Shown here one piece after another: positions 25,901-56,322 of a stretch of 64,000 nucleotides of DNA. A model generated the notes under the pieces. That model worked only from the letters and a program-made list of their open reading frames with translations. It was not told where the DNA came from and did not search any database. This DNA comes from a virus. Each line of letters begins with the position of its first letter. Positions within the stretch are counted from its first letter, which is position 1. The DNA is taken from positions 2,706 through 66,705 of the IMG/VR virus record IMGVR_UViG_3300045933_000229. The stretch is one strand, 5' to 3'. Both the position numbers and the translations under genes were made by a program.

Positions 25901-28423
25901 ATGACCCAGCCCGCCTGCCCGCCCGTCCAGCCCTGCTTCTGCCCGGCTGCCGACCTCCCGATCGCCGCCCAGCTGGTGCCGCAGGGCGGCCCCGGCATCA
26001 CGATCGAGATCCCGATCTTCGGCACGCAGCCGTTCTCGGTGAATCTTGTCGAGAACCCGCTTCTTCCCGTCGCCGACACCGTGGTCGCGGCGTCCGTCCA
26101 GATCATCGGCGGCAACGTCCTCACGATCCAGACCGCCTCGCCCGCGATCACCGAGACGCTCGGGGTCTACTCGGTCACCGTCCAGGTCTGCAACGCCTGC
26201 GGGTCGGTCACGCTCGTTATCCCGGTCGAGGTTGTCGTCGATCTCAACCCGGTCATCGCCTCCTGCGTCCTCGCCCAGCAGCTGTGGACCCCGGAGGCGC
26301 GCGTCCCCACGGTCGGCGACCAGCTGCTCGCCTTCACCCCCGCCGGGTGCCGCTCACTCCTACCGCCGCTCACGACCTGCGAGGCCATCGCGACGTTCCC
26401 CGCCGGTGCGGCAGCGCTCGCCACCACGCTCGTCACCGGCGCGTGCACCACCGTCACCGCGCAGCAGATCCTCGACCTCTACGACCTGTGCGCGGAGATC
26501 GGCGCGTTCCCGGCCGCTGGGCCGCTCGTACCGGCCAACACGTTCATCGTCAGGCAGGGCGCGACCTGCGCGCTGACGACGTTCGCCACGCTGCTCGCCG
26601 AGGTCGAGGCATCGCTCGACCTGTGCGCGATGCTGCAGAACTTCCCGAACGCCGTGGTGCAGCCGACCGCGGTGTTCTACGGCCAGCAGGCCGGGGTGTG
26701 CCACGAGTTCGCCGTCTCCGACCTGATCGCGCTCGTCGGCGGTGGCTGCCCGCTGGAGGCGACCTGCGACGGCACGTGTGCCGCTCCGGCGTACTCGTTC
26801 GCCTCCGCGCCCACGACCGGAATGTGGCTGAACGCCGGTGTCCTCACGCTGTCGGCGAACAACTGCGCCGACATCTTCGAGGTCGGCGCGAGCATCCTCG
26901 GACGCTCGACGACGAGCCAGGTGCACTTCGAGGCCGGGCACCCGTCGTTCGGCGACGGCGCCAGGATGACCCTCAGCGCCCAATCCGCTGGCGGCCACGC
27001 GCAGATCCTCGGGGCTACCGCGGATGCGGCCAATTCCCCAGGGCAGGCGTTCATCTTCGGCGGGTCCGACAACTTCGGGTTCAACGGCGGCAACGTCGTC
27101 GTCGAGGGCGGCAGTTCATCTCTCTCTGCCGGCGGCAGCGTCCTCATCAACGCTGGGAGCGGCCCGCTCTCCGGCGGCAACGTCGTTGTCACCGGCGCAG
27201 GGACCAACAGCACGTTCCTCGCGCAATCGTTCGACATCGTCAACATCGGCGACTTCTCGAACGATCGGATCGTCATCGACTCGACGAGCGGCACCGTCAG
27301 GATCGACACCTCAAATGTGGTGCGCTGGTCGTGGGGGCCGAACGGCGAGGTCACTATCGGCGGAACGCCGGGTGGTGCTGGAGACGTACTCACGAGCGCC
27401 GGACCCGGCGCACCGCCGACGTGGTCGGCGCCCGCCGGCGGCACGCCGGTCCTGTACGCCGAGAATCCGGTGGTGCCGACTCCGCCAGCGGCGGCTGGCA
27501 ACAACGCGGTTGCCATCGGCTCAGGCGCTTCGACTCTCCAGGCCAACGATATTGCCCTCGGCACGAACGCGCAGGCGCTAGGCGCCAGTTCGAGCGCCTT
27601 CGGATCGGGCGCCGCGGCAAATGGCCTCAGCACGATCGCGATCGGCAACAACCCGACGGCGAGCGGCGCCAACTCGATCGCGATCGGGACGCAGACCACC
27701 TCGCAAGGCGTCGGGTCGATCTCGATCGGTCAGCTGGCTGGCACGCCGCTCGGCGCGGCCGGGACGACTTCGATCCAGATCGGCACGCTTTCCAACGCGA
27801 ACCAGCTTGACGGCATCGCGATCGGCAACGGCGCGGTCACGAATCGGGTGCGCGCGATCGTCATCGGCCAGGGCGCGGCGGCCACGATCGGCGGGTTCGG
27901 GAACATCGTGATCGGCGGAAACGGCGCGAAGTCCGACGTGTCGCAGTCGATCGCCATCGGCGAGAACGCCCGCAACCTGTTCACCGGCGGGGGCGGCGGC
28001 GCCGACATCGCGATCGGCCTCGACTCCACAACCGACTCGGTCGGCGGTGGTGACAACTCGGCCATCGCGATCGGCTTCGGCTCCTCGGCTACCCGCCTGC
28101 AGTCGATCGCTATCGGCCGCGCCGCCTCGGCGACCGCGCAGAACGCCGTCGCGATCGGCCCGAACGTCGGCAACGCCTCGTCGAATTCGGTGCTGATCGG
28201 GTCGTCCGGGACCAACGTCTTCTTCCTGACATCGACCGGCGCCTTCGGGTTGGCTGGAACAGGGGCGATGTACCTGCTACCGAATTACGCGGTCGCGAGC
28301 CTGCCGACCGTGGCGAACCTCGGCGGTTTCATCTACGTCACGGACGAGTCGGGTGGGGCGGTCCCGGCGTTCTCCGACGGGGCCAACTGGAGGCGCGTGA
28401 CCGACCGCGCGATCGTGACATGA
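25901..28423 (+). CDS. Cys-rich fibre protein with YadA-like head repeats
   Basis: paralog of 21643 (PVLYAENPV, AIG repeats, C-terminal YVxD..FSDGxNW). Confidence 0.8.
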   Translation: MTQPACPPVQPCFCPAADLPIAAQLVPQGGPGITIEIPIFGTQPFSVNLVENPLLPVADTVVAASVQIIGGNVLTIQTASPAITETLGVYSVTVQVCNACGSVTLVIPVEVVVDLNPVIASCVLAQQLWTPEARVPTVGDQLLAFTPAGCRSLLPPLTTCEAIATFPAGAAALATTLVTGACTTVTAQQILDLYDLCAEIGAFPAAGPLVPANTFIVRQGATCALTTFATLLAEVEASLDLCAMLQNFPNAVVQPTAVFYGQQAGVCHEFAVSDLIALVGGGCPLEATCDGTCAAPAYSFASAPTTGMWLNAGVLTLSANNCADIFEVGASILGRSTTSQVHFEAGHPSFGDGARMTLSAQSAGGHAQILGATADAANSPGQAFIFGGSDNFGFNGGNVVVEGGSSSLSAGGSVLINAGSGPLSGGNVVVTGAGTNSTFLAQSFDIVNIGDFSNDRIVIDSTSGTVRIDTSNVVRWSWGPNGEVTIGGTPGGAGDVLTSAGPGAPPTWSAPAGGTPVLYAENPVVPTPPAAAGNNAVAIGSGASTLQANDIALGTNAQALGASSSAFGSGAAANGLSTIAIGNNPTASGANSIAIGTQTTSQGVGSISIGQLAGTPLGAAGTTSIQIGTLSNANQLDGIAIGNGAVTNRVRAIVIGQGAAATIGGFGNIVIGGNGAKSDVSQSIAIGENARNLFTGGGGGADIAIGLDSTTDSVGGGDNSAIAIGFGSSATRLQSIAIGRAASATAQNAVAIGPNVGNASSNSVLIGSSGTNVFFLTSTGAFGLAGTGAMYLLPNYAVASLPTVANLGGFIYVTDESGGAVPAFSDGANWRRVTDRAIVT

Positions 28424-44988: not shown

Positions 44989-46431
44989 ATGGCCGACCTC
45001 GAAACCACGTTGATGTCGCTCAACCCGATGGACTTCGTCACCGGGATGGAGCGCGGCTTCAAGCTGGGCGAGGCGCGCGCGGCCGAGGAGCGCGCGAAGG
45101 CGCTCGCGGCGACACAGACGCTGATGAGCGAGGAGTTCGCCGGGCCGGGGCAGACGGCGTTCCGTGCCGCCGAGGTGCAACGCGGGACGAGCGGTGCGCA
45201 GCTTGGCGATCTCCTGAACCAGATCAACATCGAGGCGACCGGGCAGGCGCGCCCCGAGATCCTGAACAGCCTCGTGCAGCAGGCGAGGAACATCAACACC
45301 GGCGCGCAGATCCGCGGCGTCGAACTGGGCGGCCAGCTGGAGCGCGCCCCCGGCCAGCAGCGAACGCAGACCGCCTTTGCCGCGCAGACCGAGGAGAACC
45401 TGCCAGCGATGCTGGAGCGCCGACAGGCGGCGTTCGACTTCGACGGCATGAAGCGCAGGGCCGAGGCGGGCGACTTCGCCGCGCAGCGCGTGGTGGTCGA
45501 GGCGACGCGCGGGGCGACCCAGCTGCTGAACGAGACGAGGGCCGACCCGGCGAATCAGGGTCGCGACGACTACGAGATTTCCGAGATCGCGATCCGGCGC
45601 ACCACCGACCCGACCCAGCGCGCCTACCTCCTGCAGCTGCAGCAGCAGCAGGCCCAGCAGGGCATCCAGCGCGAGGGCAACACCTTCCCGGGCCTGTCGA
45701 AGTGGCTGCCACGCCTGCTCCCCGGCGCCGAGGTGCGGCTCACGCCCGGCACCACCGACCAGGTGGACATCGTCATGACCGAGTTCCAGGACGTCTACGA
45801 CTCGCAGACGAAGCAGACCGTGCGGGTGCCATCGAAGCGCATGGTCCAGAGCGGGATCTCGCTGCGCGAGGAAGATCCGACCAACGTCGAGCGCTTCATC
45901 GGCCGCCTGACCGGCCAGAAGGTGCCGTTCGTCACGCCGAACCTGCGGCAAGGCCCGGCCACCGCGCCCACCCCGTCGCAGGCCGGTGCTGCTGCGGCTG
46001 GCGCCCCGGCGCGCGCCACCGCCGCCGCCGTCACCACGACGCCACAGCAGCCGCAGGTCGCGCGCCCGGCCGGTCAACCCGCGGCCGCGGCGGCGAACCC
46101 GCAGCTGGACGAACTCACGCAGATCGAGCGCTCGCTCACCGCCCCCGGGTTCGCCTCGGCCGACGAGCGCAAGCAGGCGGGCGTTCTGCAGATCATCCGG
46201 CAGCTGAAACAGGAGCGCCGCGCGCTCAACCCGGACACGCTCGCGCAGCTGCGCCGCCTTGCCGGTGAGGCGTCGGTGCCGGCGGTGCCGATGCAGCCGA
46301 GCATCGGCGCGGAGTTCGGTGGCACCGGCATCAGCCCGGGCGGGACGCCGGTGATGGGGCTGCCGCAGGCGACCACGCCCGCGCCGCCCACCGTCGAGGA
46401 GCAGATCCGGGCGCTCATCACGGTGCGCTGA
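44989..46431 (+). CDS. internal virion/ejection protein
   Basis: SD AGGAG; Gln/Ala-rich helical; no Cys seen. Confidence 0.65.
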   Translation: MADLETTLMSLNPMDFVTGMERGFKLGEARAAEERAKALAATQTLMSEEFAGPGQTAFRAAEVQRGTSGAQLGDLLNQINIEATGQARPEILNSLVQQARNINTGAQIRGVELGGQLERAPGQQRTQTAFAAQTEENLPAMLERRQAAFDFDGMKRRAEAGDFAAQRVVVEATRGATQLLNETRADPANQGRDDYEISEIAIRRTTDPTQRAYLLQLQQQQAQQGIQREGNTFPGLSKWLPRLLPGAEVRLTPGTTDQVDIVMTEFQDVYDSQTKQTVRVPSKRMVQSGISLREEDPTNVERFIGRLTGQKVPFVTPNLRQGPATAPTPSQAGAAAAGAPARATAAAVTTTPQQPQVARPAGQPAAAAANPQLDELTQIERSLTAPGFASADERKQAGVLQIIRQLKQERRALNPDTLAQLRRLAGEASVPAVPMQPSIGAEFGGTGISPGGTPVMGLPQATTPAPPTVEEQIRALITVR

Positions 46432-47297
46432 TGGCCGACGCCCGCAGCCGCTCAGACCTCGAAGCGCTCGCGCACCAGATCGCGGTGCGCAAGGGCGTCG
46501 ATCCGACGCTCGTCAAGGCGGTGATCGAGCAGGAGTCGAACTGGAACCCGAACGCGAAGTCGAGCGCCGGGGCGAGCGGCCTGATGCAGCTGATGCCCGC
46601 GACGGCGCGTGGCCTCGGCGTGAAGAACATCCTCGACCCGGTCGAGAACCTCACCGGCGGCATCGAGTACCTCAAGCAGCAGATCAACCGCTTCGGCGAC
46701 GTCGGCCTCGCGCTGGCAGCCTACAACTGGGGACCGGCGCGCGTCGCGAAGCTGCAGTACGACCCGCGCAGCGTCCGCATCCCCGACGAGACGCAGAAGT
46801 ATGTGCCCGGCGTGATCGGCCGGATGGGCAAGTACGGCGACCAGCTGGTGCCGAGCGCGACCACCGCGGCGCTGTTCCCGCAGGTGAGGGACTCGGTCGT
46901 CTCTGCGATCCAGGGCAAGGTGAACGCGCGCACCGGCGCCGCGCCGATGCCCGCCGACATCGAGCGCGAGATCCGCTCTCTGAACGCCCGCGCCCCGGGC
47001 GTTCCTCAAGGTGGCCCGGTGGCATCGGGCGACATCGTTCCTGCCAGCGGCGGTGCCAGCACGATGCCCACGGCGGCTGCGATCGAGGCGCCTGCGGTGA
47101 CGGCTGGAGCGGAGGGGACTCCACCCGAGGCGTCGCAAAGCGCGCTTGCGCTCCTCACACCGCAGGCGGCCTCCCGCGGCCAGACCCAGAACCTCGACCA
47201 GTTCCTTCGCGCGCGCTTCGGCCCGCTCGCCGACCTGGCCGATCCGTTCCCGAAGACCTTCGACGCGGAGCTCGCAAGGCTGATCGACCGGGCGTGA
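46431..47297 (+). CDS. virion-associated lytic transglycosylase (SLT)
   Basis: QES.WNPNAKS.AGASGLMQLMPATA...LAAYNWG...ETQKYV. Confidence 0.92.
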   Translation: MADARSRSDLEALAHQIAVRKGVDPTLVKAVIEQESNWNPNAKSSAGASGLMQLMPATARGLGVKNILDPVENLTGGIEYLKQQINRFGDVGLALAAYNWGPARVAKLQYDPRSVRIPDETQKYVPGVIGRMGKYGDQLVPSATTAALFPQVRDSVVSAIQGKVNARTGAAPMPADIEREIRSLNARAPGVPQGGPVASGDIVPASGGASTMPTAAAIEAPAVTAGAEGTPPEASQSALALLTPQAASRGQTQNLDQFLRARFGPLADLADPFPKTFDAELARLIDRA

Positions 47298-47298
47298 G

Positions 47299-50200
47299 AT
47301 GGCCGAGATCGACACCTCTCGCCGGATCCTCGAAAACCCCGACGGGTCGTTCTCGACCGAGCGGACGATCACGATCGAGTCGGACGGCAAGCACCTCCTG
47401 ATCCCGACGATCCTGAACGGCGCGCAGCTGCAGCCGCAGGACGCGATCGAGGCGTGGCGCATCGGCGCGAACCCCGAGGTGGGCGCGTTCGACAGCGCCG
47501 AGGAGGCCGAGCGCGCCGCGGTGGCGCGCAGCGCGCAGATCGGGCAGGTCCGCAGCCCCGACCGGCGCCCGCAGAGCGTCGGCGGGATGCTCGAACAGGT
47601 GGCGAACGTCGCCCCGCGGCGCACCCAGCAGCAGGCCGCGACCACCCTCATGCCGTGGGCCGAGGTGGAGGCGCGCCCCGAGTTCCAGAACCTGAGCGCG
47701 CACGGCAAGCGCCTCGCGAAGACGCAGTACCTGGCCGAAGCCGAGCGTGTCGCCGGGCTGCTCTACAAGAAGGACAAGGACAAGAGCGAGTTCGTGCAGG
47801 GCGTGCTGTCGGTGGTCCCGGAGTTCAAGGATCCCACCCGCACCGTGGGCGACTGGCTGAACGACCTGAACCTCTCGATCCAGTCCGGCGTCGCGGCCGT
47901 GACCGGCAGCGTCGGGGAGGTCGGCCGGATGATCGGCGTCGGCGGCGAGGGCTTCGAGGGCGACCCCACCTCGCTCGGCAACCTGTTCAACCCGGACGCG
48001 CAGGAGGCGCTGCGCAAGACCTGGCAGACCCAGAAGTCGGCCGCGTCGCAGGACTTCCAGAAGTTCAAGGCCGAGCGCGAGGCGGCGGCGCGGGCCGAGG
48101 GCGGCGGGGAGGTGGGCGCCGGGAAGGCGGTGCTGGGGGCGTACGCCAAGCGCCCGAGCGAGGCGCTGCTTTCCCTTGCCGAGCAGGTGCCGGTGATCGG
48201 CTCGTTCATCGGCCCGGGCGGCCTCGCCCGCGGGGCGGCGGTGCTGCCCCGGGCGCGCGCGGCGCTCGCCGGCCTGGAGTCCGGGGCGATGACCGCCGAG
48301 CAGGCGGCGGCGGCGATCGTGGCGGCCGAACGCGCCGGGGTGACGGCTGGGCGGCTGACGACCGGGACGCTGGGCGCCACGCTGGAGAGCGCCGACGCGA
48401 AGCAGACCTTCATCGAGCGCATGACCAGCCTCGGTGACGACGTCTGGCAGGCCGACCCCGAGTTCCAGCAGGCGGTGGCGGCCGGGCAGGATCCCAAGGC
48501 GGTGAAGAAGCGGCTCGCCGAGGAGCGCTCCGGCTGGGCCACCGGCATCGGCGCCGTCCTCGGGGTGTTCGACGGGATCTCGGGCTTCGAGCGCCTGTTC
48601 ATCGGCCCGGCGGTGGCCGGGATCCGGCGACGCCTCCTGTCCGGGGCGGCCGAGCCGCTCGTCGAATCGCTGCAGGGCATCAACCCCCTCGCCGTGGCGA
48701 ACCTGCAGGCGCAGGGGATGGACCCGAAGATCGCCTTCACGCAGGGCTTCGGCCCGGCGGTGGCCGAGAGCCTGGTGGTGGCCGGTCCGTTCGGGGTCGC
48801 CGCAGCGGCGTTCCCCGGCGCCCCGGTGGTCCCGACGGAAGGCGGCCCGCCTGCGCCACCTCCCGGCGCTGCGCCCGCCGCAGGCCCGGCGGCGCCCCCA
48901 CCCGGCGCCCCGCCGACCGCCCCCGCGGAGGGCGCCCCGGCCACGGTCGGCCCGATCCCGTCGGCGATGAGCCGGGCGGCGGAGGCCAGGCAGGCGGCCC
49001 AGGCTGAGATCGCCGAAGCCGACCGGGTGCGTGGTGACGGAAACTCGACACCTCAGGAGGTGGCCGCGGCCGAGGCTGCCAGGACATCAGCCGAAGGTCG
49101 TATTGCGGAACTCGACCGTTTCGAGCAGGCGTGGAACAACGTCGAGGTCATCCGCGAGGTCCAGCGCGACATCGGTCGGGATGAGGCGCGCATCGCCGAG
49201 ATCAACGCCGACCAGCGGGCCGACCCCGACTCGGCGGCGCGCGAGATCGCGGCGCTGGAGGGGCGCATCGAGCGCAACCGCCAGCTGCAGGAGGTGAACG
49301 CCCTCGACGAGAACGAACTGCAGGCGTACATCGACTCGCGGAACAAGTCGCTCGCGGCGGCCTCCGGCGAGCGCGGCCTCGGCATCACCGTGGACCGCGG
49401 GCGCCTGACGAACGAGATCGGCCACGCGCAGCGCCTGCTCGAAGAACGCGCCGAGATCCCCACCCCGGCCGAGGTCGAGTTCGCGCAGCGCGCGCCGACC
49501 GTGTTCACCACCGACGCGGCGGGCGTCCCGAACTGGCCCAGCACCGCCGAGATCGAGCGCCTGCCGTTCATCGACGCGATGAACCTGCAGCGCGACCGGG
49601 CGCTGTCGCTCATCAACCTCGTGCGCGGGAACAAGCAGTTCACCCGCTCGCAGCGCGCCACCGCGATCGGGCAGGCGCGCTCGAACTGGGAGGCGATGAA
49701 CCGCATCGCCGAGGCGTGGAACCTGTCCGACGAGGAACTGCAGGCGCGCTACGACGACCTCGTGCAGAGCCTCGGCGCCGGGTTCCGCGGCGCGACGACG
49801 CTCAACCAGGGCCACTTCCTCGAACTCGCCGGGGTGATCGCCTCGCAGGCTGCGCGCAAGGGCACGCCGATGACCTGGCGGCAGGCCCAGCTGGAGGCGC
49901 AGAAGACGATCGCGGCGATCTACGTGCCGCCGACCGTCATCGGCCCGGGCGGCATCACCGGCGGCCCGAAGGCCCCGGCGGGCGACACGAACCAGACCCG
50001 CTTCTACGACGACGACCCGATCGTCTCGGGCGGCCGGGTGCTGGGGCGCACGCCGAGCGACGCGGAAAAGAAGCTGTGGGACAACGCGATCAAGGCGCTC
50101 GCGAAGCTGGGGTTCAACAAGTCGATGCTCGACGCGCTTGGGCTGCGCATCGCCACCAGCGAGTACGCCCTCGGGCTGTACCTGCCCTCCTCGAACGACG

Positions 50201-53200
50201 CGCGCAACCCGAACATCAGCTACACCCTCTCGGTCAGCTGGGGCCTGAACAACGGCACGCAGGAGCAGCAGTGGACGGCGATCCACGAGATCAGCCACGC
50301 GCTCGCCGACAGCCAGAGGAACGGCACCGACATCGCCGAGGTGGACCCGCGGTTCCTCCCGACCGGGGAATTCCGCGCCGAGCTCGCGGCCGCCTACCAG
50401 AACGGCAACGGCCCGCTGCAGAAACTGCACTACCCGCTCTCCCCGACGTGGAACTACGGCCCCGACGCCATCGCGGCGGAGCTCTGGGCGCAGGCGAACA
50501 GCTACTACTTCCTTGACAGGAACCTGCTCAAGCAGCACGCTCCGAAGACCTTCGCCTTCGTGGAGTCGTTCCATGCCAACAATGCCGGAAATCAATTCAC
50601 TACCCGACTTCAAGTTGCTGCAGCGGTACGAGGCCACTTTTCCGGGGTTCCGGTTGCCGCCCCTCCTCCAGCCGGACAGGCTCCCGCTGGAGGTGCGGGA
50701 CCAGCTGCGCCTGGCGCTGGCCCTGGACCGACCGGACCTCCAGCTGCACCAGCAGGGACTCCAAGCGGACAGCCTCGCCAAGTCGGGCGAGGTGAAGTTC
50801 TAGCCGACATCGGCACGGCGATCGGTTCTCGCTCGCGCGCCGAGCAACTGAGGATCATCGACGATGCCATCAACGCCGTCCAAGCTGAAATCGCCGGTCA
50901 ACCCGGTGCTGTCGCTCCCGTCGTTCAAGGCGCTGTCGGTGGAGGAGCGGCTCCAGTCGCTGCAGCAGTTCAGGGCGAACCTCGCGCCGAAGCCGCGGCT
51001 GGCGAAGCCGGTGCAGCCCGCGAGCGCCGCGCCGAAGCTGAAACGCCCCGCGCCCTTGCGCGACCAGTTCGACCTGCCGCGGAGCGCGGCCGCAGGCTTG
51101 GCCGCGCAGGCGACCAGGATCAAGCAGGCGGCCTCGCCGAGCCTCAAGCGGCCGGAGCCGGTGCCGGTGTTGAAACCCCTCAAGCCGCGAGGAAACTGAC
51201 CCGCGCGCAGCGCCGCATCGCCGACGAGATCGTCCGCCTCGAAGACCTCGAAGCGAACATCCTGAACGAGATGTCGCAGATCAACGAGGTGCAGGAGGAG
51301 ATCACCGACGAGGCGCAGGCCGAGGAAATCGAGAACATCCTGCGCCAGCTGGGCGAGGCGCTCGCTCAGGTGCGTAACGACAAGAACCAGTTCCGCTCCG
51401 ACCTCGCCGACGTGAACCGGATGCGCGAGCGGGTGCCGAACCCGACCACCGCGGTCCGGCTGCAGGAGATCATCGGCCGCATCCTCGGCATCGACCCGAA
51501 GGATCTGGCGCGCCGCGTCCCGGCGATCGAGTTCGCCACCACCGGCGACATCGACCCGCGCAACAAGACCCTCACCCTGCGCGGCGGCGTGGTGGCGGGC
51601 GGCGCCGACCCGAGCGTGCTGGCGTTCTACCTGCCGAACTCGAACCGCGTCGTCTTCTTCGTGGACAACATCAGGAAGGGCGAGGAGGCGTCGGTCATCC
51701 TGCACGAGTTGTTCCACAAGCGCGCTCGCCAGCTGCTTGGCACCGAGACGATGAACCGCCTCAAGCGCGAGGCGCTGCGCTGGAAGGACGCGCCGGTCGG
51801 CTCGATCGAGCGCTCGATCTACGACAAGGCGATGCCGCAGATCATGGCGGGCATCGAGCAGCTGCCGAAGGACCAGCAGCGCGCCGCGTTCCAAGAGGAG
51901 CTCCTGCCCTACTTCATCACCGAGGCGGTGCGCCAGGGCGTGCGCCCGGACCCGAAGGCGATGAAGGCGCCGACCGCCGAGGGCTGGCTCACGCGGATCA
52001 AAGCGGCGTTCGAGCAGGCGGTGGCGAAGGTCATGGGCCGCAAGCCCGACCCGGCGCAGTTCGGCGTGAAGGAGCTCATGGCGGCGGCGTGGGGCGCTGC
52101 GCAGCTGGAGCGCGGCTCCTTGCAGTACGAGTTGATGGCGCGCGGGCAGCCGGTGAGCGGCCCGATCCACGGTGAGGCGGCGGCCGCGGGCGCGCTGATG
52201 TCCTCGCCCATCTTCGAGCGCCGACTCGCGCAGCTGAAACAGCGCGTTGACCTGTTCGTCCCGGAGTTGAGAGATGCACAGGAGCGCAAGGTCTACTCCC
52301 GTCGCGCCGCGAACGCGCAGCCACTCAACGATACGCAGATTCAGGCGGTTCGCGCGGCGCCTGCGGCGCAGGTCCAGCAGGCGGCTACGGCTCCACCGGC
52401 GGTGGGTCCGGCGCAGCCGCAGAAGTCGATCGTCGAGCGGTTCAAGCCGAGCGAGGCGCGGCCGATCAGGAACAAGGAAGACCTCGACAACTTCATGCGC
52501 ACGGGCAACCGCCCGACGATCGAGTGGATGGAGCAGACGCGCGACCGGACGATCGAGAACTACGTCGATCACCAGCGCCCGTTCCTCGCGTGGCTCAAGC
52601 GCCACGTCCTGCCGATGGCCGCATGGGCGAAGTTGAAGCTGGTGCCCGGGCGCCTCAAGGCGAGGTCGGACGCCTACCAGCGCGAACTGCTGGCGCCGAT
52701 TGAGCGCAAGGTCGCCGCCTTCTCGAAGCAGCTTGGGATCCCGTACGACCAGGCTGCGCTCGACGCTGGGTGGCTGCCCACGCTGCAGCACATCAAGGAG
52801 GCGAACGCGGCGCTGCGCAAGAAGCTGGTCGATCGACTTGTGGCCGGGGAGCCGGGGGCCGCCGAGAACCTCGCCCTGTTCGATCGCACGCAGCGTGGTG
52901 CGCTCAAGCCGGGCGAGCAGGCGGCGCCGATGGCTGGCGGCCTCACCGACGCCGACGCGGCGATGCAGCTGCAGCACCTCGCCGCGCGCTACACGCCCGA
53001 GCAGATGACCACCCTGCAGGGCATCGCCGATGACATCGTCGGTGCGTTCGCCACGTTGAAGAACGACGCGGTGCAGAGCGGGCAGATCAGCCGCGACGCG
53101 CTCAAGAACTTCCCGAAGTTCCAGCGCTACGTCGCCCTCACCGGGCCGAACCAGGGCGTGTGGGACGATCAGGTGTCCGACGGCTTCGGCTCCTACATCG

Positions 53201-55245
53201 CGGAGAACCGCCTGCGCGAGCGCGAGGGCCGCACCACCAGCGTCAGCGAGAACGCGCTCGAAGCGCTGGCCGAGCGCGTCGGCCGCGTGTCGGCCTACGA
53301 CGCGAGCCGCGAGTTCAAGTCGGAGTTGAACGACATCTGGACGAGGGCGGGCGGCGATCAGAACACGATCGGGCTGCGCCGCTTCACCGCCAACCTGGTG
53401 CAGTCGCCCAAGCGCAGCGACATCGTGTGGAACGCGCCCGACGGCAAGCGCTACGTGTTCCGGTTCGAGGACGGGGAGACGGTGGGCGAGTCGCTCCTCG
53501 GGAAGAACCGCGAGTACCACGACACGCTGGGCCTCAAGATCATGGACTACCTCACGCGCAAGTTCTCGCGCGCGGTGACCCAGTGGATCCCGGCGTTCGG
53601 ACCGATCAACGCCATGCGCGACGTGCAGGAGAAGGCGATCCTGATCCGCTCGCGCGACGTGAAGGACGCGAACGGGAAGGCGGTCGATCCGAACCAGCTG
53701 TTCAAGAAGACGTGGGCATACGCGATCAGCCCCGACACGTGGCGGGCGGCGAAGCAGCTGGCGTTCGGCGCCTCGAAGCGCGCGCAGGAGAACACGGCGA
53801 TCGGCCGCTACTCGAACGAGCTCATCAACGAGGGCGGCGTCTCGACGTGGGGCGAGATCACCAGGAAGGGCCTCGCCTCGATCGAGGAGGCGATCAAGCA
53901 GGAAGCGGCGCGCGCGGGGCTGGCGGGCGGCGCGACGAACTCGCTGCAGAAGGTGCAGGACTTCGTGCGCAACTACAACCTGATGTTCGAGGTGGTGTCG
54001 GCGCTGTCGGTGAACGCGGCGATGCGCGACCTCAACGTGGCGCCGAAGGACGCGGCGTTCCAGACGCTCGACCTGATGAACTTCCAGAACGTCGGCGCGC
54101 GCAGCGGCTGGCTGCGGGCCGCGTTCGCGTTCTTCAACCCGGCGGCGCAGTCGGGCTACAACCTCTACCGGCAGATCGTGAAGTCGCCGCGAGGGCGCCG
54201 GGACTTCTTCGGCCTCCTCGCGTTCTCGTTCTTCCTGCAGGGCATCCTGCGGATGCTGGCCGACGATGACGAGGATCTCGGCAACGAACTCGACCAGCGC
54301 GGGACGTGGGAGACGGACCGCAACATCCCGGTGAACCTGCTGGGCGTGCCGCTCAAGATCCCGGTCGGCTTCGGCGCGCCGCAGTTCGCTTGGTCGATCA
54401 TGAACAGCGGGTATCGCTGGCTCTCGGGCCGCTACGACACCGCCGACGCCGTCGTGCAGGGCGGCATCTCGACGCTCAAGTCGTTCAACCCGATCCCGAT
54501 CAGCGAGGTCGGCCCGACGAAGCAGCCGATCAACTTCCTGTTGAAGACGTTCACGCCCACGGTGTTCCGCCCGGCGCTCGACTTCGTCACCGACTCCGAC
54601 GCGTGGGGCGGGAAGCTAACCGCCTACTACCCGGACAAGACGAAATTCAGGAGCGAGCAGGGGCGCCCGACGACCTCGGTGTTCTACAAGGATCTCGCCG
54701 AGGGGCTGCAGGGCCTCGGCCTCGACCTCTACCCCGAGCAGGTGAAGGCGATCTCCGAGGCGGTGGCGTGGGGGCCGTACGGCTATCTGCTGCAGGGCGT
54801 CGCCGACTCGAACAAGGAGAACGAGGGGCGCCGTCTCAACCCGATGGACAGGCTGCCTGCGTCGGCCTTCCTCAAGTTCATGGGTGTGTCGCGGTTCGTC
54901 GGCGGCGAAAGCCGCTACCTCGAAGCCCGCTACTATGAGAACTACGACCGGGCGCTCGATGACCTGCGCGAGTTCAACCGCGCGAAGGCCGACGGACGCG
55001 AGGCGAAGTGGCGCAGCGAGAACCCCGAGCGGATGCGCCGGGTCGAGGGCCTGCAGAAGCAGGAGCGCGTGATGCGCGGGCTGTCGAAGGACTTCAACAC
55101 CGCCGTTCGTGACCTGCAGAACGAGAAGATCAACGTCGAGCAGGCGCGGCCGGTGCTGGAGCGGATCCAGAACCAGCGCGAGGCGGCGATGCGGGAGTTC
55201 CTGCGCAACCTCAAGGTGTGGGACGAGGAGGAGGGCGACGAATGA
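47299..55245 (+). CDS. giant ejection / large polyvalent protein with zincin-like motifs and LPD38-like C-terminus
   Basis: 2648 aa; HEISH and HELFH motifs; C-terminal NF...G, FFNP..Q, KIPVGFG pattern. Confidence 0.8.
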   Translation: MAEIDTSRRILENPDGSFSTERTITIESDGKHLLIPTILNGAQLQPQDAIEAWRIGANPEVGAFDSAEEAERAAVARSAQIGQVRSPDRRPQSVGGMLEQVANVAPRRTQQQAATTLMPWAEVEARPEFQNLSAHGKRLAKTQYLAEAERVAGLLYKKDKDKSEFVQGVLSVVPEFKDPTRTVGDWLNDLNLSIQSGVAAVTGSVGEVGRMIGVGGEGFEGDPTSLGNLFNPDAQEALRKTWQTQKSAASQDFQKFKAEREAAARAEGGGEVGAGKAVLGAYAKRPSEALLSLAEQVPVIGSFIGPGGLARGAAVLPRARAALAGLESGAMTAEQAAAAIVAAERAGVTAGRLTTGTLGATLESADAKQTFIERMTSLGDDVWQADPEFQQAVAAGQDPKAVKKRLAEERSGWATGIGAVLGVFDGISGFERLFIGPAVAGIRRRLLSGAAEPLVESLQGINPLAVANLQAQGMDPKIAFTQGFGPAVAESLVVAGPFGVAAAAFPGAPVVPTEGGPPAPPPGAAPAAGPAAPPPGAPPTAPAEGAPATVGPIPSAMSRAAEARQAAQAEIAEADRVRGDGNSTPQEVAAAEAARTSAEGRIAELDRFEQAWNNVEVIREVQRDIGRDEARIAEINADQRADPDSAAREIAALEGRIERNRQLQEVNALDENELQAYIDSRNKSLAAASGERGLGITVDRGRLTNEIGHAQRLLEERAEIPTPAEVEFAQRAPTVFTTDAAGVPNWPSTAEIERLPFIDAMNLQRDRALSLINLVRGNKQFTRSQRATAIGQARSNWEAMNRIAEAWNLSDEELQARYDDLVQSLGAGFRGATTLNQGHFLELAGVIASQAARKGTPMTWRQAQLEAQKTIAAIYVPPTVIGPGGITGGPKAPAGDTNQTRFYDDDPIVSGGRVLGRTPSDAEKKLWDNAIKALAKLGFNKSMLDALGLRIATSEYALGLYLPSSNDARNPNISYTLSVSWGLNNGTQEQQWTAIHEISHALADSQRNGTDIAEVDPRFLPTGEFRAELAAAYQNGNGPLQKLHYPLSPTWNYGPDAIAAELWAQANSYYFLDRNLLKQHAPKTFAFVESFHANNAGNQFTTRLQVAAAVRGHFSGVPVAAPPPAGQAPAGGAGPAAPGAGPGPTGPPAAPAGTPSGQPRQVGRGEVLADIGTAIGSRSRAEQLRIIDDAINAVQAEIAGQPGAVAPVVQGAVGGGAAPVAAAVQGEPRAEAAAGEAGAARERRAEAETPRALARPVRPAAERGRRLGRAGDQDQAGGLAEPQAAGAGAGVETPQAARKLTRAQRRIADEIVRLEDLEANILNEMSQINEVQEEITDEAQAEEIENILRQLGEALAQVRNDKNQFRSDLADVNRMRERVPNPTTAVRLQEIIGRILGIDPKDLARRVPAIEFATTGDIDPRNKTLTLRGGVVAGGADPSVLAFYLPNSNRVVFFVDNIRKGEEASVILHELFHKRARQLLGTETMNRLKREALRWKDAPVGSIERSIYDKAMPQIMAGIEQLPKDQQRAAFQEELLPYFITEAVRQGVRPDPKAMKAPTAEGWLTRIKAAFEQAVAKVMGRKPDPAQFGVKELMAAAWGAAQLERGSLQYELMARGQPVSGPIHGEAAAAGALMSSPIFERRLAQLKQRVDLFVPELRDAQERKVYSRRAANAQPLNDTQIQAVRAAPAAQVQQAATAPPAVGPAQPQKSIVERFKPSEARPIRNKEDLDNFMRTGNRPTIEWMEQTRDRTIENYVDHQRPFLAWLKRHVLPMAAWAKLKLVPGRLKARSDAYQRELLAPIERKVAAFSKQLGIPYDQAALDAGWLPTLQHIKEANAALRKKLVDRLVAGEPGAAENLALFDRTQRGALKPGEQAAPMAGGLTDADAAMQLQHLAARYTPEQMTTLQGIADDIVGAFATLKNDAVQSGQISRDALKNFPKFQRYVALTGPNQGVWDDQVSDGFGSYIAENRLREREGRTTSVSENALEALAERVGRVSAYDASREFKSELNDIWTRAGGDQNTIGLRRFTANLVQSPKRSDIVWNAPDGKRYVFRFEDGETVGESLLGKNREYHDTLGLKIMDYLTRKFSRAVTQWIPAFGPINAMRDVQEKAILIRSRDVKDANGKAVDPNQLFKKTWAYAISPDTWRAAKQLAFGASKRAQENTAIGRYSNELINEGGVSTWGEITRKGLASIEEAIKQEAARAGLAGGATNSLQKVQDFVRNYNLMFEVVSALSVNAAMRDLNVAPKDAAFQTLDLMNFQNVGARSGWLRAAFAFFNPAAQSGYNLYRQIVKSPRGRRDFFGLLAFSFFLQGILRMLADDDEDLGNELDQRGTWETDRNIPVNLLGVPLKIPVGFGAPQFAWSIMNSGYRWLSGRYDTADAVVQGGISTLKSFNPIPISEVGPTKQPINFLLKTFTPTVFRPALDFVTDSDAWGGKLTAYYPDKTKFRSEQGRPTTSVFYKDLAEGLQGLGLDLYPEQVKAISEAVAWGPYGYLLQGVADSNKENEGRRLNPMDRLPASAFLKFMGVSRFVGGESRYLEARYYENYDRALDDLREFNRAKADGREAKWRSENPERMRRVEGLQKQERVMRGLSKDFNTAVRDLQNEKINVEQARPVLERIQNQREAAMREFLRNLKVWDEEEGDE
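50573..50803 (+). CDS. putative gene nested in +1 frame of giant protein
   Basis: SD GGAG 7 nt upstream; G/C-ending codons in this frame while host frame loses GC3 bias. Confidence 0.55.
   Translation: MPTMPEINSLPDFKLLQRYEATFPGFRLPPLLQPDRLPLEVRDQLRLALALDRPDLQLHQQGLQADSLAKSGEVKF
50864..51199 (+). CDS. second putative nested +1 frame gene (Lys/Pro-rich)
   Basis: SD GAGGA 9 nt upstream; GC3 bias shifted to this frame. Confidence 0.55.
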   Translation: MPSTPSKLKSPVNPVLSLPSFKALSVEERLQSLQQFRANLAPKPRLAKPVQPASAAPKLKRPAPLRDQFDLPRSAAAGLAAQATRIKQAASPSLKRPEPVPVLKPLKPRGN

Positions 55246-55682
55246 TCTACCGGGTGAGCAAGTCCACGCCGCGCTTCTGCGTCGGCCTCAACATCAACGG
55301 CTGCGGCGGCGAGCCGCTCACCGCGGGCGACTTCTTCATCATCGTGCGCCGCCTCGGGCCGGGCGTGCTGATCCGCGAGCCGGGTGTCTGGGACGAGGGC
55401 TGCGGGCGGTTCAGCCCGGCGCGCCAAGTCAGCTGGTCGCGGCTGCCGAACCGGCGCATCAAGTACCCGGCCTTCGAGGTGAACGCGTCCGGGCAGGTCT
55501 GCTTCCTGTGGGACAACAAGATCCTGTGCGGTGAGCCGGGCCGCTGGTGCGGTCAGATTTACCACTGCAACAACCATATCGCGACGGTCGAGTTCGAGGT
55601 GGGCGACCGGGCGTTCGTGAAGAACGGTGTGTCGGTGGCGGCGAGCGGCTGCACGCCAGCGCGCTCCTGCCCAACCTGCTGA
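55242..55682 (+). CDS. Cys-rich putative virion protein
   Basis: ATGA-coupled; 9 Cys. Confidence 0.6.
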   Translation: MIYRVSKSTPRFCVGLNINGCGGEPLTAGDFFIIVRRLGPGVLIREPGVWDEGCGRFSPARQVSWSRLPNRRIKYPAFEVNASGQVCFLWDNKILCGEPGRWCGQIYHCNNHIATVEFEVGDRAFVKNGVSVAASGCTPARSCPTC

Positions 55683-55692
55683 GGAGACGACG

Positions 55693-56322
55693 ATGTACGC
55701 GTACAAGGGATTGCAGTGCTGGAAGTCGCGGCTCCTCGCGCCGCTCGAACCGGCCGACACCACGGTCATGATCGGCGCGCTCGACCTCGGCACGATCGGC
55801 GCGCTGCTGCAGAACGGCTCGCACACCTACCTCGTGATCTCGGCGCCCGGCCTCGGCTGCGAGGTGGTGCGGGCGTCCTTCGCCTACGGCGTGCTGAATC
55901 TGGAGCGCGGGCAGGACGGCACGGTGGCGCGGCCGTGGCCGATGAACAGCTGCATCGAGTGGCAGATGGTCGGCGCCGCGGTCAGCGCGCTCGCGTTCCA
56001 AGCCGCCTGCTGCCCGGCCGAGTGCATCGCGCCCTCGATCAGCGGCGGCGCGACATTCCCGGACGGCGTGGCGGGCGTCGCCTACTCGCACACGGTCGAG
56101 CTCTCCGGCACGCCGCCGATCACGATCAACTCCATCTCTGTCCCGTCGTGGATGGAGGCGACGCTCGACGCTGGCGTCATCCGCTTCACCGGCACCCCGC
56201 CGGCGGCGGGCGCCTACATGGTGGACTTCTCGCTCAAGGGCTGCGGGATGATCGTCGATGGCCTGCACGCCTGCATCTACGTCACCGCCAGCGAGGCGGC
56301 CGAAAGCGAAACGCCAACCTAG
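55693..56322 (+). CDS. putative virion protein with Ig-like C-domain
   Basis: E.VR...LERGQDGT.A..W N-domain; P.G.AGVAYS...PSW...GTP..AG.Y He_PIG-like. Confidence 0.65.
   Translation: MYAYKGLQCWKSRLLAPLEPADTTVMIGALDLGTIGALLQNGSHTYLVISAPGLGCEVVRASFAYGVLNLERGQDGTVARPWPMNSCIEWQMVGAAVSALAFQAACCPAECIAPSISGGATFPDGVAGVAYSHTVELSGTPPITINSISVPSWMEATLDAGVIRFTGTPPAAGAYMVDFSLKGCGMIVDGLHACIYVTASEAAESETPT

What the first reader, a model, noticed from the sequence alone, without database searches (positions are those of the whole stretch)
50560..51199. Two SD-preceded genes overprinted in the +1 frame inside the 2648-aa ejection protein
Seen: right after the first HExxH domain, the main frame abruptly loses its G/C third-position bias (gct, gga, cca, caa) and encodes a low-complexity A/G/P linker. 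The +1 frame gains normal codon usage in two ORFs: 50573-50803 (GGAG SD; MPTMPEINSLPDFKLLQRYEATF...) and 50864-51199 (GAGGA SD; MPSTPSKLK...). The bias returns to the main frame after the second stop, and the main frame stays open throughout. Inference: hidden nested genes, perhaps inhibitors or chaperones of the adjacent metallopeptidase-like domain, or packaged partners. Standard annotation would miss them.
Basis: partly seen in the sequence, partly recalled or inferred. Interest (0 to 1): 0.76.

Follow-up and report, generated by a model that had tools for sequence, protein, structure and literature searches.

The report
Two small genes nested in giant phage gene
Inside the gene for a 2648-residue phage ejection-type protein, two short stretches carry the coding signature of a second reading frame, and one of these hidden small genes has a clear relative in another metagenome, so routine annotation is very likely missing real proteins here.

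Summary
The window is a complete 66.7-kb, 69% G+C virus record. In the 2648-aa LPD38 'large polyvalent protein' gene (47299-55245), main-frame A/T-ending codons jump from 7% (742 of 10673 training codons) to 64% (49 of 77) and 46% (52 of 112) exactly over the two +1 ORFs. The +1 frame there has 14% and 7%. A codon model finds an alternative frame winning in 16 of 996 windows over 27 gene models, all of them here. Its change-points sit at the ORF ends. Independent soil runs hold identical sequence without indels, so this is not an assembly error. ORF2 (50864-51199, 111 aa) has a colinear 110-aa homolog, P0008 (59% identity, E 1.2e-23), from another contig. ORF1 (50573-50803, 76 aa) rests on intrinsic signals only. 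The main frame is also real: relatives P0002 and P0003 share main-frame motifs inside the region. Best reading: two same-strand nested genes with their own SD-ATG starts, lying over the low-complexity inter-domain linkers. Their function is unknown. ORF2 is a basic, proline- and lysine-rich, mostly disordered protein. DNA of the relatives could not be fetched, so nesting in relatives is untested.

The parts
47299..55245 (+). Host gene: 2648-aa large polyvalent (ejection-type) protein, main frame, open throughout
   Evidence: ORF list and translation. Pfam LPD38 at aa 2330-2510, 55.8 bits against a cut-off of 27. Full-length relatives P0002 (2692 aa) and P0003 (2845 aa). The upstream gene 46431-47297 matches transglycosylase / internal-virion-protein PHROGs.
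50284..50298 (+). First HExxH motif (HEISH, aa 996-1000) of the metallopeptidase-like domain that ends just before the region
   Evidence: Read from the translation. Only sub-threshold Pfam hits: Peptidase_M78 at 15.9 bits against a cut-off of 22. The domain is 55% and 35% identical to P0002 and P0003.
50562..50565 (+). GGAG Shine-Dalgarno-like motif, 7 nt before the ORF1 ATG
   Evidence: Sequence. The motif scan finds it; the 50-nt start context has G+C 0.50 and fold energy -5.9 kcal/mol, against 0.66+/-0.05 and -11.1+/-3.6 for 44 out-of-frame ATGs.
50573..50803 (+). ORF1: nested +1-frame gene candidate, 76 aa, acidic-neutral (pI 5.7), Leu-rich, TAG stop
   Evidence: Codon-model LLR +78.7 for +1 over the main frame. 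The Viterbi +1 segment 50587-50802 ends at its stop codon. It is the best of six frames at 0.59 per codon. Its +1-frame A/T-ending codons are 11 of 76, against 49 of 77 in the main frame. No relative was found.
50803..50862 (+). Main-frame island between the two nested ORFs, with normal main-frame codon usage
   Evidence: LLR -17 in favour of the main frame. A/T-ending codons are 3 of 20. The main-frame peptide resembles the P0002 and P0003 linker motifs (VGRG.VLAD; R..D.I..V.A.) by eye.
50849..50854 (+). +1-frame TGA (50849-50851) overlapping the GAGGA Shine-Dalgarno-like motif (50850-50854). It bounds ORF2 four codons before its ATG.
   Evidence: Sequence and three-frame translation. Motif scan.
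50864..51199 (+). ORF2: nested +1-frame gene, 111 aa, basic (pI 11.7), rich in Pro, Ala, Leu, Lys and Ser, mostly disordered, TGA stop
   Evidence: Homolog P0008: 110 aa, E 1.2e-23, 65 of 110 aligned residues identical, one 1-residue gap, same start and end, from a 7576-nt contig of another assembly. LLR +67.0, Viterbi segment 50881-51183. The AF2 model has two short helices and is otherwise coil, with mean pLDDT 67.6.
51703..51717 (+). Second HExxH motif (HELFH, aa 1469-1473) in the module that follows the region
   Evidence: Read from the translation. The motif is conserved in P0002 and P0003.

Best explanation
Two small protein-coding genes lie on the same strand, in the +1 frame, wholly inside the gene for a giant polyvalent (ejection-type) virion protein. 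They sit over the two low-complexity stretches that link its first HExxH domain to the next module.

Each is most likely translated by independent internal initiation at its own SD-ATG on the late mRNA of the giant gene. This is the way lambda Rz1 is read inside Rz. The main frame is read through the same DNA as a flexible A/G/P-rich linker.

Selection on the small proteins fixes the bases that are main-frame third positions, which explains the loss of G/C there. The undemanding linker lets main-frame first positions drift to G/C, which gives the +1 frame a normal GC3.

Shown: the frame-specific coding signal and its boundaries, the integrity of the sequence, conservation of ORF2 as a protein, and main-frame homology of the flanks and islands.

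Inferred: that both are translated, that ORF1 is functional, and that the relatives carry them nested.

Function (inferred, low confidence): ORF2 is a basic, disordered protein with conserved short motifs and probably acts by binding a partner made or packaged at the same time. ORF1 is a small helical acidic-neutral protein. My separate odds are ORF2 a real gene 0.8 and ORF1 a real gene 0.55.
For: 1. Codon counts. Main-frame A/T-ending codons are 49 of 77 and 52 of 112 over the ORFs, against 742 of 10673 in the training genes. The +1 frame has 11 of 76 and 8 of 111.
2. Uniqueness. An alternative frame scores above +5 in 16 of 996 windows over 27 gene models, all at 50569-51109.
3. Boundaries. 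The two-state segmentation gives +1 segments 50587-50802 and 50881-51183. They end at or within 16 nt of the two stop codons and begin 14-17 nt after the two ATGs. A main-frame island lies between them.
4. Strand and frame. Of six frames the + strand +1 frame scores best in both ORFs, at 0.59 per codon. The antisense shadow frames reach 0.11 and 0.44.
5. Linker control. An A/G/P linker in the same protein (48799-48966) keeps GC3 at 0.86, so linker composition alone does not explain the shift.
6. Conservation of ORF2. P0008 has 110 aa, E 1.2e-23 against 1.84 billion representatives, and 65 of 110 identities. It is colinear with one 1-residue gap, has the same first and last aligned positions, and comes from a different 7576-nt contig. 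The minimum base changes fall 32, 29 and 5 on +1 codon positions 1, 2 and 3. Changes are therefore not concentrated on main-frame silent sites.
7. Start sites. Both ATGs have an SD-like motif at 7-9 nt, as do 8 of 44 out-of-frame ATGs. Their contexts have G+C 0.50 and 0.58, against 0.66+/-0.05. None of the 44 null sites combines an SD with G+C of 0.56 or less. A +1 stop lies 4 codons before the ORF2 ATG.
8. Sequence integrity. Contigs identical to the window, without gaps, come from other soil runs: X4 50633-51144, X5 50435-50634 and 50683-51060, X7 51062-51212.
9. The main frame is real. P0002 and P0003 are single ORFs of 2692 and 2845 aa. They share main-frame motifs at 50560-50655 and around 50785-50880. 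ORF1 and ORF2 do not match them (best E 0.11-0.96 in a 5-protein database).
10. Overall G+C. The two ORFs have 0.65 and 0.705 against 0.687 for the window, so this is a phase shift and not foreign A+T-rich DNA.
Against: - No DNA of any close relative could be fetched, so open +1 frames, SD-ATG conservation and frame-specific substitution rates in homologs are untested.
- P0008 cannot be encoded in the +1 or +2 frame of P0002-P0006 (at most 53 of 110 positions compatible, background 43-50). It comes from a fourth, unseen relative, where it may be free-standing and not nested.
- P0002 appears to lack the part of the linker that encodes the best-conserved half of ORF2 (by eye). ORF2 is therefore not universal in this protein family.
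- ORF1 has no relative. One word-index search limited to 41-133 aa found only the window's own sequence. Its first ~28 codons overlap a main-frame stretch that is conserved with P0002.
- The +1 codon score (0.59 per codon) is lower than ordinary genes reach (1.0-1.16). That fits dual coding but also fits a decaying signal.
- The main frame staying open says little. The -1 frame relative to a coding frame has 0.0043 stops per codon, which by my arithmetic gives about a 0.4 chance of no stop in 213 codons.
- There is no expression evidence of any kind.
- Gene callers did call ORF1 and ORF2 on ~1-kb contigs, but those are the same sequence and add nothing independent.
Confidence: 0.7

Rival explanations
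1. Non-functional relic of out-of-frame remodelling. The linker DNA was once read in the +1 frame, either as part of another gene or as a copy inserted out of frame. It is now read only in the main frame, and the +1 codon signature and open frames are leftovers that no longer make protein.
For: - Any high-GC3 coding sequence read in its -1 frame gives an A/G/P/R/V/E-rich product like the one seen, because first positions are forced to G/C.
- The +1 score is weaker than in normal genes: 0.59 against 1.0-1.16 per codon.
- The main frame stays open by chance with probability about 0.4.
- Out-of-frame remodelled gene families are reported in E. coli (PMC8788219; search listing and start of abstract only).
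Against: - ORF2 keeps 59% identity, its length, and its start and end against P0008, with a single 1-residue gap. A linker under no constraint in that frame would not do this at such divergence.
- Main-frame motifs shared with P0002 (55% identity in the neighbouring domain) show that the main-frame reading is old. Yet main-frame third positions are still 46-64% A/T, against the strong G+C pressure seen everywhere else.
- The +1 signal stops at the stop codons and restarts at an SD-ATG.
- The idea that ORF2 is a frame-shifted copy of the tail of the N-terminal module did not replicate: p = 0.002 for ORF2 against P0003, but p = 0.49 for P0008, in 9 tests.
Confidence: 0.13
2. The giant ORF is not one protein here. 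Ordinary small genes lie between two separate large genes, the main frame is open across them only by chance, and so nothing is truly dual-coding.
For: - Stops are rare in the -1 frame of coding DNA: 0.0043 per codon.
- P0008 was called as a separate 110-aa gene on a 7.6-kb contig, which may mean the large frame is interrupted there.
- The region is a module junction. P0003 carries about 580 aa here against about 270 in the window.
Against: - There is no stop in the main frame from 47299 to 55245, so a ribosome that starts at 47299 must read through.
- The 60-nt spacer between the ORFs has main-frame codon usage (LLR -17) and resembles the relatives' main-frame sequence. An intergenic spacer would not.
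- P0002 and P0003 are also single giant ORFs.
- On ~1-kb fragments of this very sequence the gene caller also picks the +1 ORFs, so the calling of P0008 does not show that it is free-standing.
Confidence: 0.08
3. Recoding and not separate genes. Ribosomes shift from the main frame into +1 near 50570 (and again near 50860) to make truncated or alternative forms of the giant protein.
For: - The +1 frame is open upstream of ORF1 from 50513.
- A cluster of codons that are rare in this genome begins at about 50575.
Against: - A +1-frame TGA lies 4 codons before the ORF2 ATG, which leaves 12 nt for a shift.
- P0008 starts at the aligned Met.
- Both ATGs have correctly spaced SD-like motifs.
- No stop-codon or slippery motif typical of bacterial +1 shifting is evident by eye. 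That motif knowledge is recalled, not tested.
Confidence: 0.04
4. Assembly artefact: two compensating indel errors put a stretch of the true protein out of frame.
For: The record is a metagenome assembly.
Against: - Contigs from three other runs and studies match 50435-50634, 50633-51144 (with 50683-51060 a second time) and 51062-51212 with 0 differences and 0 gaps.
- The +1 frame has stops at 50801-50803 and 50849-51851 is not a range; the second stop is at 50849-50851. It therefore cannot be the continuous true frame.
- The relatives match the main frame at the borders.
Confidence: 0.02

Closest known systems
Lambda Rz1 embedded in Rz (two-component spanin, 'embedded' architecture)
   Same: A small gene lies wholly inside a larger phage gene, on the same strand and in the +1 frame, and gene callers usually miss it. 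The embedded protein is proline-rich, needs little secondary structure, and lies over a flexible part of the host protein. An origin by stop-codon loss and read-through of a downstream small gene has been proposed for spanins (PMC6139136, passages read).
   Different: ORF1, ORF2 and P0008 contain no cysteine at all (sequences), so they have no lipobox and are not o-spanins. The host gene is a 2648-aa virion or ejection polyvalent protein, not a lysis protein. There are two successive nested genes, not one. No interaction between nested and host product is shown.
Large polyvalent proteins of phages (Iyer et al. 2017; LPD38; phi24B gp47)
   Same: The host gene has an LPD38 domain above Pfam's cut-off and two HExxH motifs. 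It lies next to a transglycosylase / internal-virion-protein gene. Polyvalent proteins often carry one to five zincin-like MPTase domains that are proposed to process them autoproteolytically (PMC5512222, passages). The 2811-aa LPD38 protein gp47 of phi24B is a virion protein proposed to be an ejection protein (bioRxiv 10.64898/2026.04.10.717836, one passage).
   Different: Those passages describe no genes nested in the inter-domain linkers. I read only the passages found with my search terms, and supplements were closed. The two HExxH domains here reach no Pfam metallopeptidase model above threshold.
Overprinted (overlapping) genes of viruses in general
   Same: Two frames of one DNA stretch are both coding. 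One product is low-complexity and disordered, and one frame has codon usage atypical for the genome. These are the features used to detect and polarise overprinting (PMC8227390, PMC6195259, PMC6188560; search listings and starts of abstracts only).
   Different: Here the frame with atypical codon usage is the long host gene and the genome-typical frame is the nested one. Which frame is older cannot be decided from one genome.

Membership tests
Functional same-strand nested (overlapping) gene | Open frame with a plausible start (SD plus ATG) inside another gene | tested here: met
   ORF1 is 50573-50803 and ORF2 is 50864-51199. GGAG and GAGGA lie 7 and 9 nt upstream.
Functional same-strand nested (overlapping) gene | Coding signature specific to the alternative frame, bounded by the ORF | tested here: met
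   LLR +78.7 and +67.0, change-points at the ORF ends, and 16 of 996 windows, all in this region.
Functional same-strand nested (overlapping) gene | Conservation of the alternative-frame protein in relatives | tested here: inconclusive
   Met for ORF2: P0008, 59% identity, E 1.2e-23, same length. Not met for ORF1: no relative in one word-index search or in phage tblastn. Only one relative is known, and its DNA and context were not seen.
Functional same-strand nested (overlapping) gene | The host frame is also under selection across the overlap (true dual coding) | tested here: inconclusive
   Main-frame motifs are shared with P0002 and P0003 at the ORF 5' ends and between the ORFs. Over the low-complexity bodies the alignment is too poor to judge. 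The upper bound on main-frame identity implied by P0008 is 69 of 104.
Functional same-strand nested (overlapping) gene | Evidence of translation (Ribo-seq, peptides) | not testable with these tools
   No RNA or proteome data were available.
o-spanin (Rz1-like) | Lipoprotein signal with a lipobox cysteine | tested here: not met
   There is no Cys in ORF1, ORF2 or P0008 (sequences).
Large polyvalent protein (host gene) | LPD-type domain above the curated threshold in a very large multi-domain phage protein | tested here: met
   PF18857 LPD38 at 55.8 bits against a cut-off of 27, aa 2330-2510 of 2648.
Large polyvalent protein (host gene) | Zincin-like MPTase domain (HExxH plus downstream Glu) | tested here: inconclusive
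   HEISH and HELFH are present. The Pfam hits (M78, ATLF, M90) are all below their cut-offs. No fold comparison was run.

The most novel reading that the evidence does not exclude
The inter-domain linkers of this giant polyvalent protein were created by read-through fusion across two pre-existing small genes. On this reading the giant gene overprinted the small genes, not the reverse. Both small proteins are still made and work with the giant protein, for example by timing its metallopeptidase-driven processing or its packaging. That would be a general route by which polyvalent proteins grow without losing the genes they swallow.
Probability: 0.2. Interest if true: 0.8.

Novelty: new member of a known kind. 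Interest (0 to 1): 0.58.

Why it matters
Gene callers forbid nested genes, so proteins like these are systematically absent from phage annotations and protein databases. ORF1 and ORF2 entered the big protein collection only because short contig fragments were called on their own.

This case shows that in high-G+C phages a simple frame-resolved GC3 or codon-model scan can expose such genes from a single genome, and that one of the two predictions was then borne out by a homolog.

It also places nested genes in the linkers of a polyvalent ejection-type protein, a class whose processing and delivery are poorly understood. It gives two small, testable candidates for partners or regulators. If the read-through-fusion origin holds, it bears on how these giant multi-domain proteins are assembled in evolution.

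Tried and rejected
Searches for relatives' DNA:
- Single-protein and alignment scans of viral contigs and a degenerate-pattern scan gave nothing close.
- The metagenome contigs and genome-contig scans gave only distant loci, L003-L005, 33% identical in the second HExxH domain. Their linkers differ (L004 inspected).
- tblastn of GenBank phage records found no match for a 600-aa piece of the giant protein, for ORF2 or for ORF1.
- An HMM of ORF2 plus P0008 against 401 genomes of one order gave one hit at E 2e-4 per genome inside a 585-aa frame. I regard it as chance or low complexity.

Family and structure look-ups with no result:
- Pfam and PHROGs for ORF1 and ORF2.
- The protein atlas for ORF2.
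- Rfam and the promoter/terminator scan over 50200-51500.
- The AF2 models were too weak to search with: mean pLDDT 67.6 and 59.6.

Ideas tested and dropped:
- ORF1 and ORF2 as paralogs (shared MPxxP...SLPxFKxL): shuffle p = 0.11 for the whole proteins and 0.02 for the N-termini only. Not claimed.
- ORF2 as a frame-shifted copy of the N-module tail: not replicated with P0008.
- An 'optimistic' test of whether the P0002 protein could co-encode ORF1- or ORF2-like +1 products. The score tracks main-frame identity in 22 control segments, so the test has no power.

Other attempts:
- Complex prediction of the first HExxH domain with ORF2 gave no answer. This is no evidence either way.
- No RNA holder was listed among the sequencing runs. 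This is no evidence on expression.
- The laid runs showed no variants inside 50435-51212, so no population-level test of frame-specific selection was possible.
- The 'left out' rows at 50704 and 50712 come from partly fitting contigs laid at the 80% threshold. I take them to be other organisms' A/G/P-rich sequence.
Full report
**What the window is.** The window is bases 2706-66705 of a 66,705-base virus record rated 100% complete, with 68.7% G+C. The finding lies in the longest gene, 47299-55245, 2648 aa. Pfam places an LPD38 'large polyvalent protein associated' domain at aa 2330-2510 (55.8 bits, cut-off 27). Two HExxH motifs are present: HEISH at aa 996-1000 and HELFH at aa 1469-1473. The Pfam peptidase hits are all sub-threshold. 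The gene just upstream (46431-47297) matches transglycosylase / 'internal virion protein with endolysin domain' PHROGs. Passages of Iyer et al. 2017 (PMC5512222) describe such polyvalent proteins and their zincin-like MPTase domains. A preprint passage reports a 2811-aa LPD38 protein of phi24B as a virion component proposed to be an ejection protein. Calling the host gene an ejection-type polyvalent protein is therefore reasonable, but it was not tested here.

**Check of the observation.**
- Main-frame GC3 is 0.96-1.00 on both sides and 0.30-0.65 between about 50560 and 51200. The phase of +1-frame third positions rises to 0.85-1.00.
- Main-frame A/T-ending codons are 49 of 77 over ORF1 and 52 of 112 over ORF2, against 742 of 10673 (7%) in the training genes. 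In the +1 frame they are 11 of 76 and 8 of 111.
- I trained a codon model on 27 gene models, leaving out this region. In 996 windows of 120 nt, 30 had a main-frame score below 5. In 16 of these an alternative frame scored above +5, and all 16 lie at 50569-51109.
- A two-state segmentation gives +1 segments 50587-50802 and 50881-51183. The log-likelihood ratios are +78.7 (ORF1), -17.0 (the 60 nt between the ORFs) and +67.0 (ORF2), against -73.8 and -82.9 in the flanks.
- The signal therefore switches on after each ATG, off at the first stop, back to the main frame in between, and off again at the second stop.
- Among six frames the + strand +1 frame is best in both ORFs, at 0.59 per codon. Ordinary coding DNA here scores 1.0-1.16 and its antisense shadow 0.4-0.5.
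- Overall G+C of the two ORFs (0.65, 0.705) is close to the genome's, so this is a change of phase and not foreign DNA.
- A second A/G/P-rich linker in the same protein (48799-48966) keeps GC3 at 0.86 and shows no alternative-frame signal. Linker composition is therefore not the cause.
- ORF length is no evidence. The same gene holds alternative-frame ORFs of 266-369 aa.
- The main frame staying open is no evidence either. Stops occur at 0.0043 per codon in the -1 frame of coding DNA. By my arithmetic that gives a chance of about 0.4 of none in 213 codons.

**Not an assembly error.** Logan contigs of three other soil-metagenome runs from different studies match the window with no differences and no gaps. 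X5 covers 50435-50634 and 50683-51060, X4 covers 50633-51144, and X7 covers 51062-51212. The +1 frame also has stops at 50801-50803 and 50849-50851. It therefore cannot be the continuous 'true' frame of the large protein.

**The main frame is real.** The word-index search found 5 relatives of the giant protein besides itself. P0002 (2692 aa) and P0003 (2845 aa) are colinear over most of the length. The first HExxH domain is 55% and 35% identical to them. The C-terminal 448 aa are 80% and 49% identical. By eye, the window's main-frame translation continues to match P0002 through the first ~28 codons of ORF1 (FAFVE.F..A....F..R.Q...A.VR..FSGVP). P0002 and P0003 both have A/G/P-rich stretches of similar length next. 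The main-frame motif VGRG.VLAD (which contains the ORF1 stop) recurs in P0003. The stretch between the ORFs resembles P0002. Neither ORF1 nor ORF2 matches any of the five relatives (best E 0.11-0.96 in that small database). The TAG that ends ORF1 is made by the main-frame codons GTT-CTA. CTA is used 7 times among 842 leucine codons of the training set.

**Conservation of ORF2.** A full HMMER search of 1.84 billion representatives with ORF2 gave 3 proteins at E <= 0.001.
- Two are long proteins matched in 6-12 short stretches, which I take to be low complexity.
- The third, P0008, has 110 aa, E 1.2e-23, and aligns 2-107 to 2-107.
- The alignment is colinear with 65 of 110 identities and one 1-residue gap, and both proteins begin and end at the same columns.
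- P0008 comes from a 7576-nt Logan contig, a single-member cluster.
- It cannot be encoded in the +1 or +2 frame of P0002-P0006: at most 53 of 110 compatible positions, background 43-50. The positive control, ORF2 in the window's own protein, gave 111 of 111. It therefore comes from a further relative.
- The minimum base changes between ORF2 and P0008 fall 32, 29 and 5 on +1 codon positions 1, 2 and 3. They imply at least 35 of 104 main-frame replacements. Change is not concentrated on main-frame silent sites, as it would be if only the main frame were selected.
- I could not see the contig, so I do not know whether P0008 is nested there. Its being called as a gene is not decisive, because on ~1-kb fragments of the window's own sequence the callers also picked ORF1 and ORF2 (P0007, P0011, P0012).

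**ORF1.** No relative was found. I ran one word-index search restricted to 41-133 aa, phage tblastn, Pfam and PHROGs. ORF1's case rests on the same intrinsic signals that correctly flagged ORF2.

**Start sites.** Of 27 model genes, 16 have an SD-like motif. Of 44 out-of-frame ATGs inside genes, 8 do. Both nested ATGs have one, at 7 and 9 nt. Their 50-nt contexts have G+C 0.50 and 0.58 (null 0.66+/-0.05) and fold energies of -5.9 and -5.2 kcal/mol (null -11.1+/-3.6). None of the 44 null sites combines an SD with G+C of 0.56 or less. A +1 stop lies four codons before the ORF2 ATG. This argues for independent initiation and against frameshifting into ORF2.

**What the products look like.**
- ORF2: pI 11.7, with Pro 17%, Ala 14%, Leu 14%, Lys 10% and Ser 10%. 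P0008 is similar, with pI 11.6.
- The AF2 model on the two-sequence alignment gives two short helices (26-40, 73-83) and otherwise coil, with mean pLDDT 67.6 and pTM 0.21.
- Identity between ORF2 and P0008 is concentrated in short blocks (NPVL.LP.FKALS, LQQFRA, AAPKL.RP.PLRDQFDLPRS, LKRP, LKPL). This is the pattern of a disordered protein that binds partners through linear motifs.
- ORF1: pI 5.7, 21% Leu, with three predicted helices at low confidence (mean pLDDT 59.6).
- None of ORF1, ORF2 or P0008 has a cysteine, so they are not Rz1-like lipoproteins.

**Mechanism proposed.** Two small late proteins are translated from internal SD-ATG sites of the giant gene's mRNA, in the +1 frame. The main frame reads the same DNA as flexible linkers between the first HExxH domain, a short conserved helix and the next module.
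- The codon pattern follows from this. Selection on the small proteins holds their second codon positions, which are main-frame third positions, away from G/C.
- The tolerant linker lets main-frame first positions go to G/C, which restricts it to Ala, Gly, Pro, Val, Glu, Arg, Gln, Asp and Leu.
- Which frame came first cannot be decided from one genome. The same equilibrium is expected whichever frame was older.
- A read-through origin has been suggested for embedded spanins (PMC6139136 passage). Here it is a live possibility, because the region is a module junction that differs in content among the three relatives.

**Comparison with what is known.** The closest precedent is lambda Rz1 embedded in the +1 frame of Rz (PMC6139136). 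The architecture is the same and the proteins differ. Overprinting in viruses generally is well documented (listings). My searches for nested genes in polyvalent proteins or comparable cases (terms listed there) turned up none. They were few, and supplements were closed, so I do not claim that none is in print. I file this as a new member of a known kind. It comprises two new small protein families, one of them with a single known relative.

Noticed in passing
window 50803-50862: A 60-nt island between the two nested ORFs returns to normal main-frame codon usage and resembles a short helix in the P0002 and P0003 linkers. The nested genes thus avoid the one conserved piece of the linker, apart from their 5' ends.
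   Followed up: partly
window 50573-50650 and 50864-50935: The N-termini of ORF1 and ORF2 share MPxxP ... SLPxFKxL, with three of the shared residues encoded by different synonymous +1 codons. The shuffle test gives p = 0.02 for the N-termini and 0.11 for the whole proteins. This is too weak to call them paralogs.
   Followed up: partly
window 48799-48966: A second A/G/P-rich linker of the giant protein has ordinary codon usage (GC3 0.86) and no alternative-frame signal. I used it as a control.
   Followed up: yes
window 55218-55682 and 55627-56322: Two high-GC3 ORFs overlap the 3' end of the giant gene by 28 nt and each other by 56 nt, as listed with GTG starts. The true starts are probably further downstream. 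They have no PHROG hits.
   Followed up: no
window 46971-47061, 27311-27371, 48979-49009: These are short stretches inside other gene models, or elsewhere in the giant gene, where the main-frame codon score drops to about 0 without any alternative frame gaining. They are probably low-complexity or weakly constrained segments.
   Followed up: no
L004 3237-11255 (also L003 and L005, one contig filed twice): A distant relative (33% identity around the second HExxH motif) is a single 2672-aa ORF in a 48% G+C contig. L005 is titled as an uncultured Burkholderiaceae MAG. Its pre-HExxH region holds different modules and no comparable nested-frame signal.
   Followed up: partly
proteins P0007, P0011, P0012 (own sequence on ~1-kb contigs): On short fragments of this same phage sequence, public gene calls chose the +1 ORFs over the giant frame. 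This is the only reason these nested proteins exist in the protein collection.
   Followed up: yes
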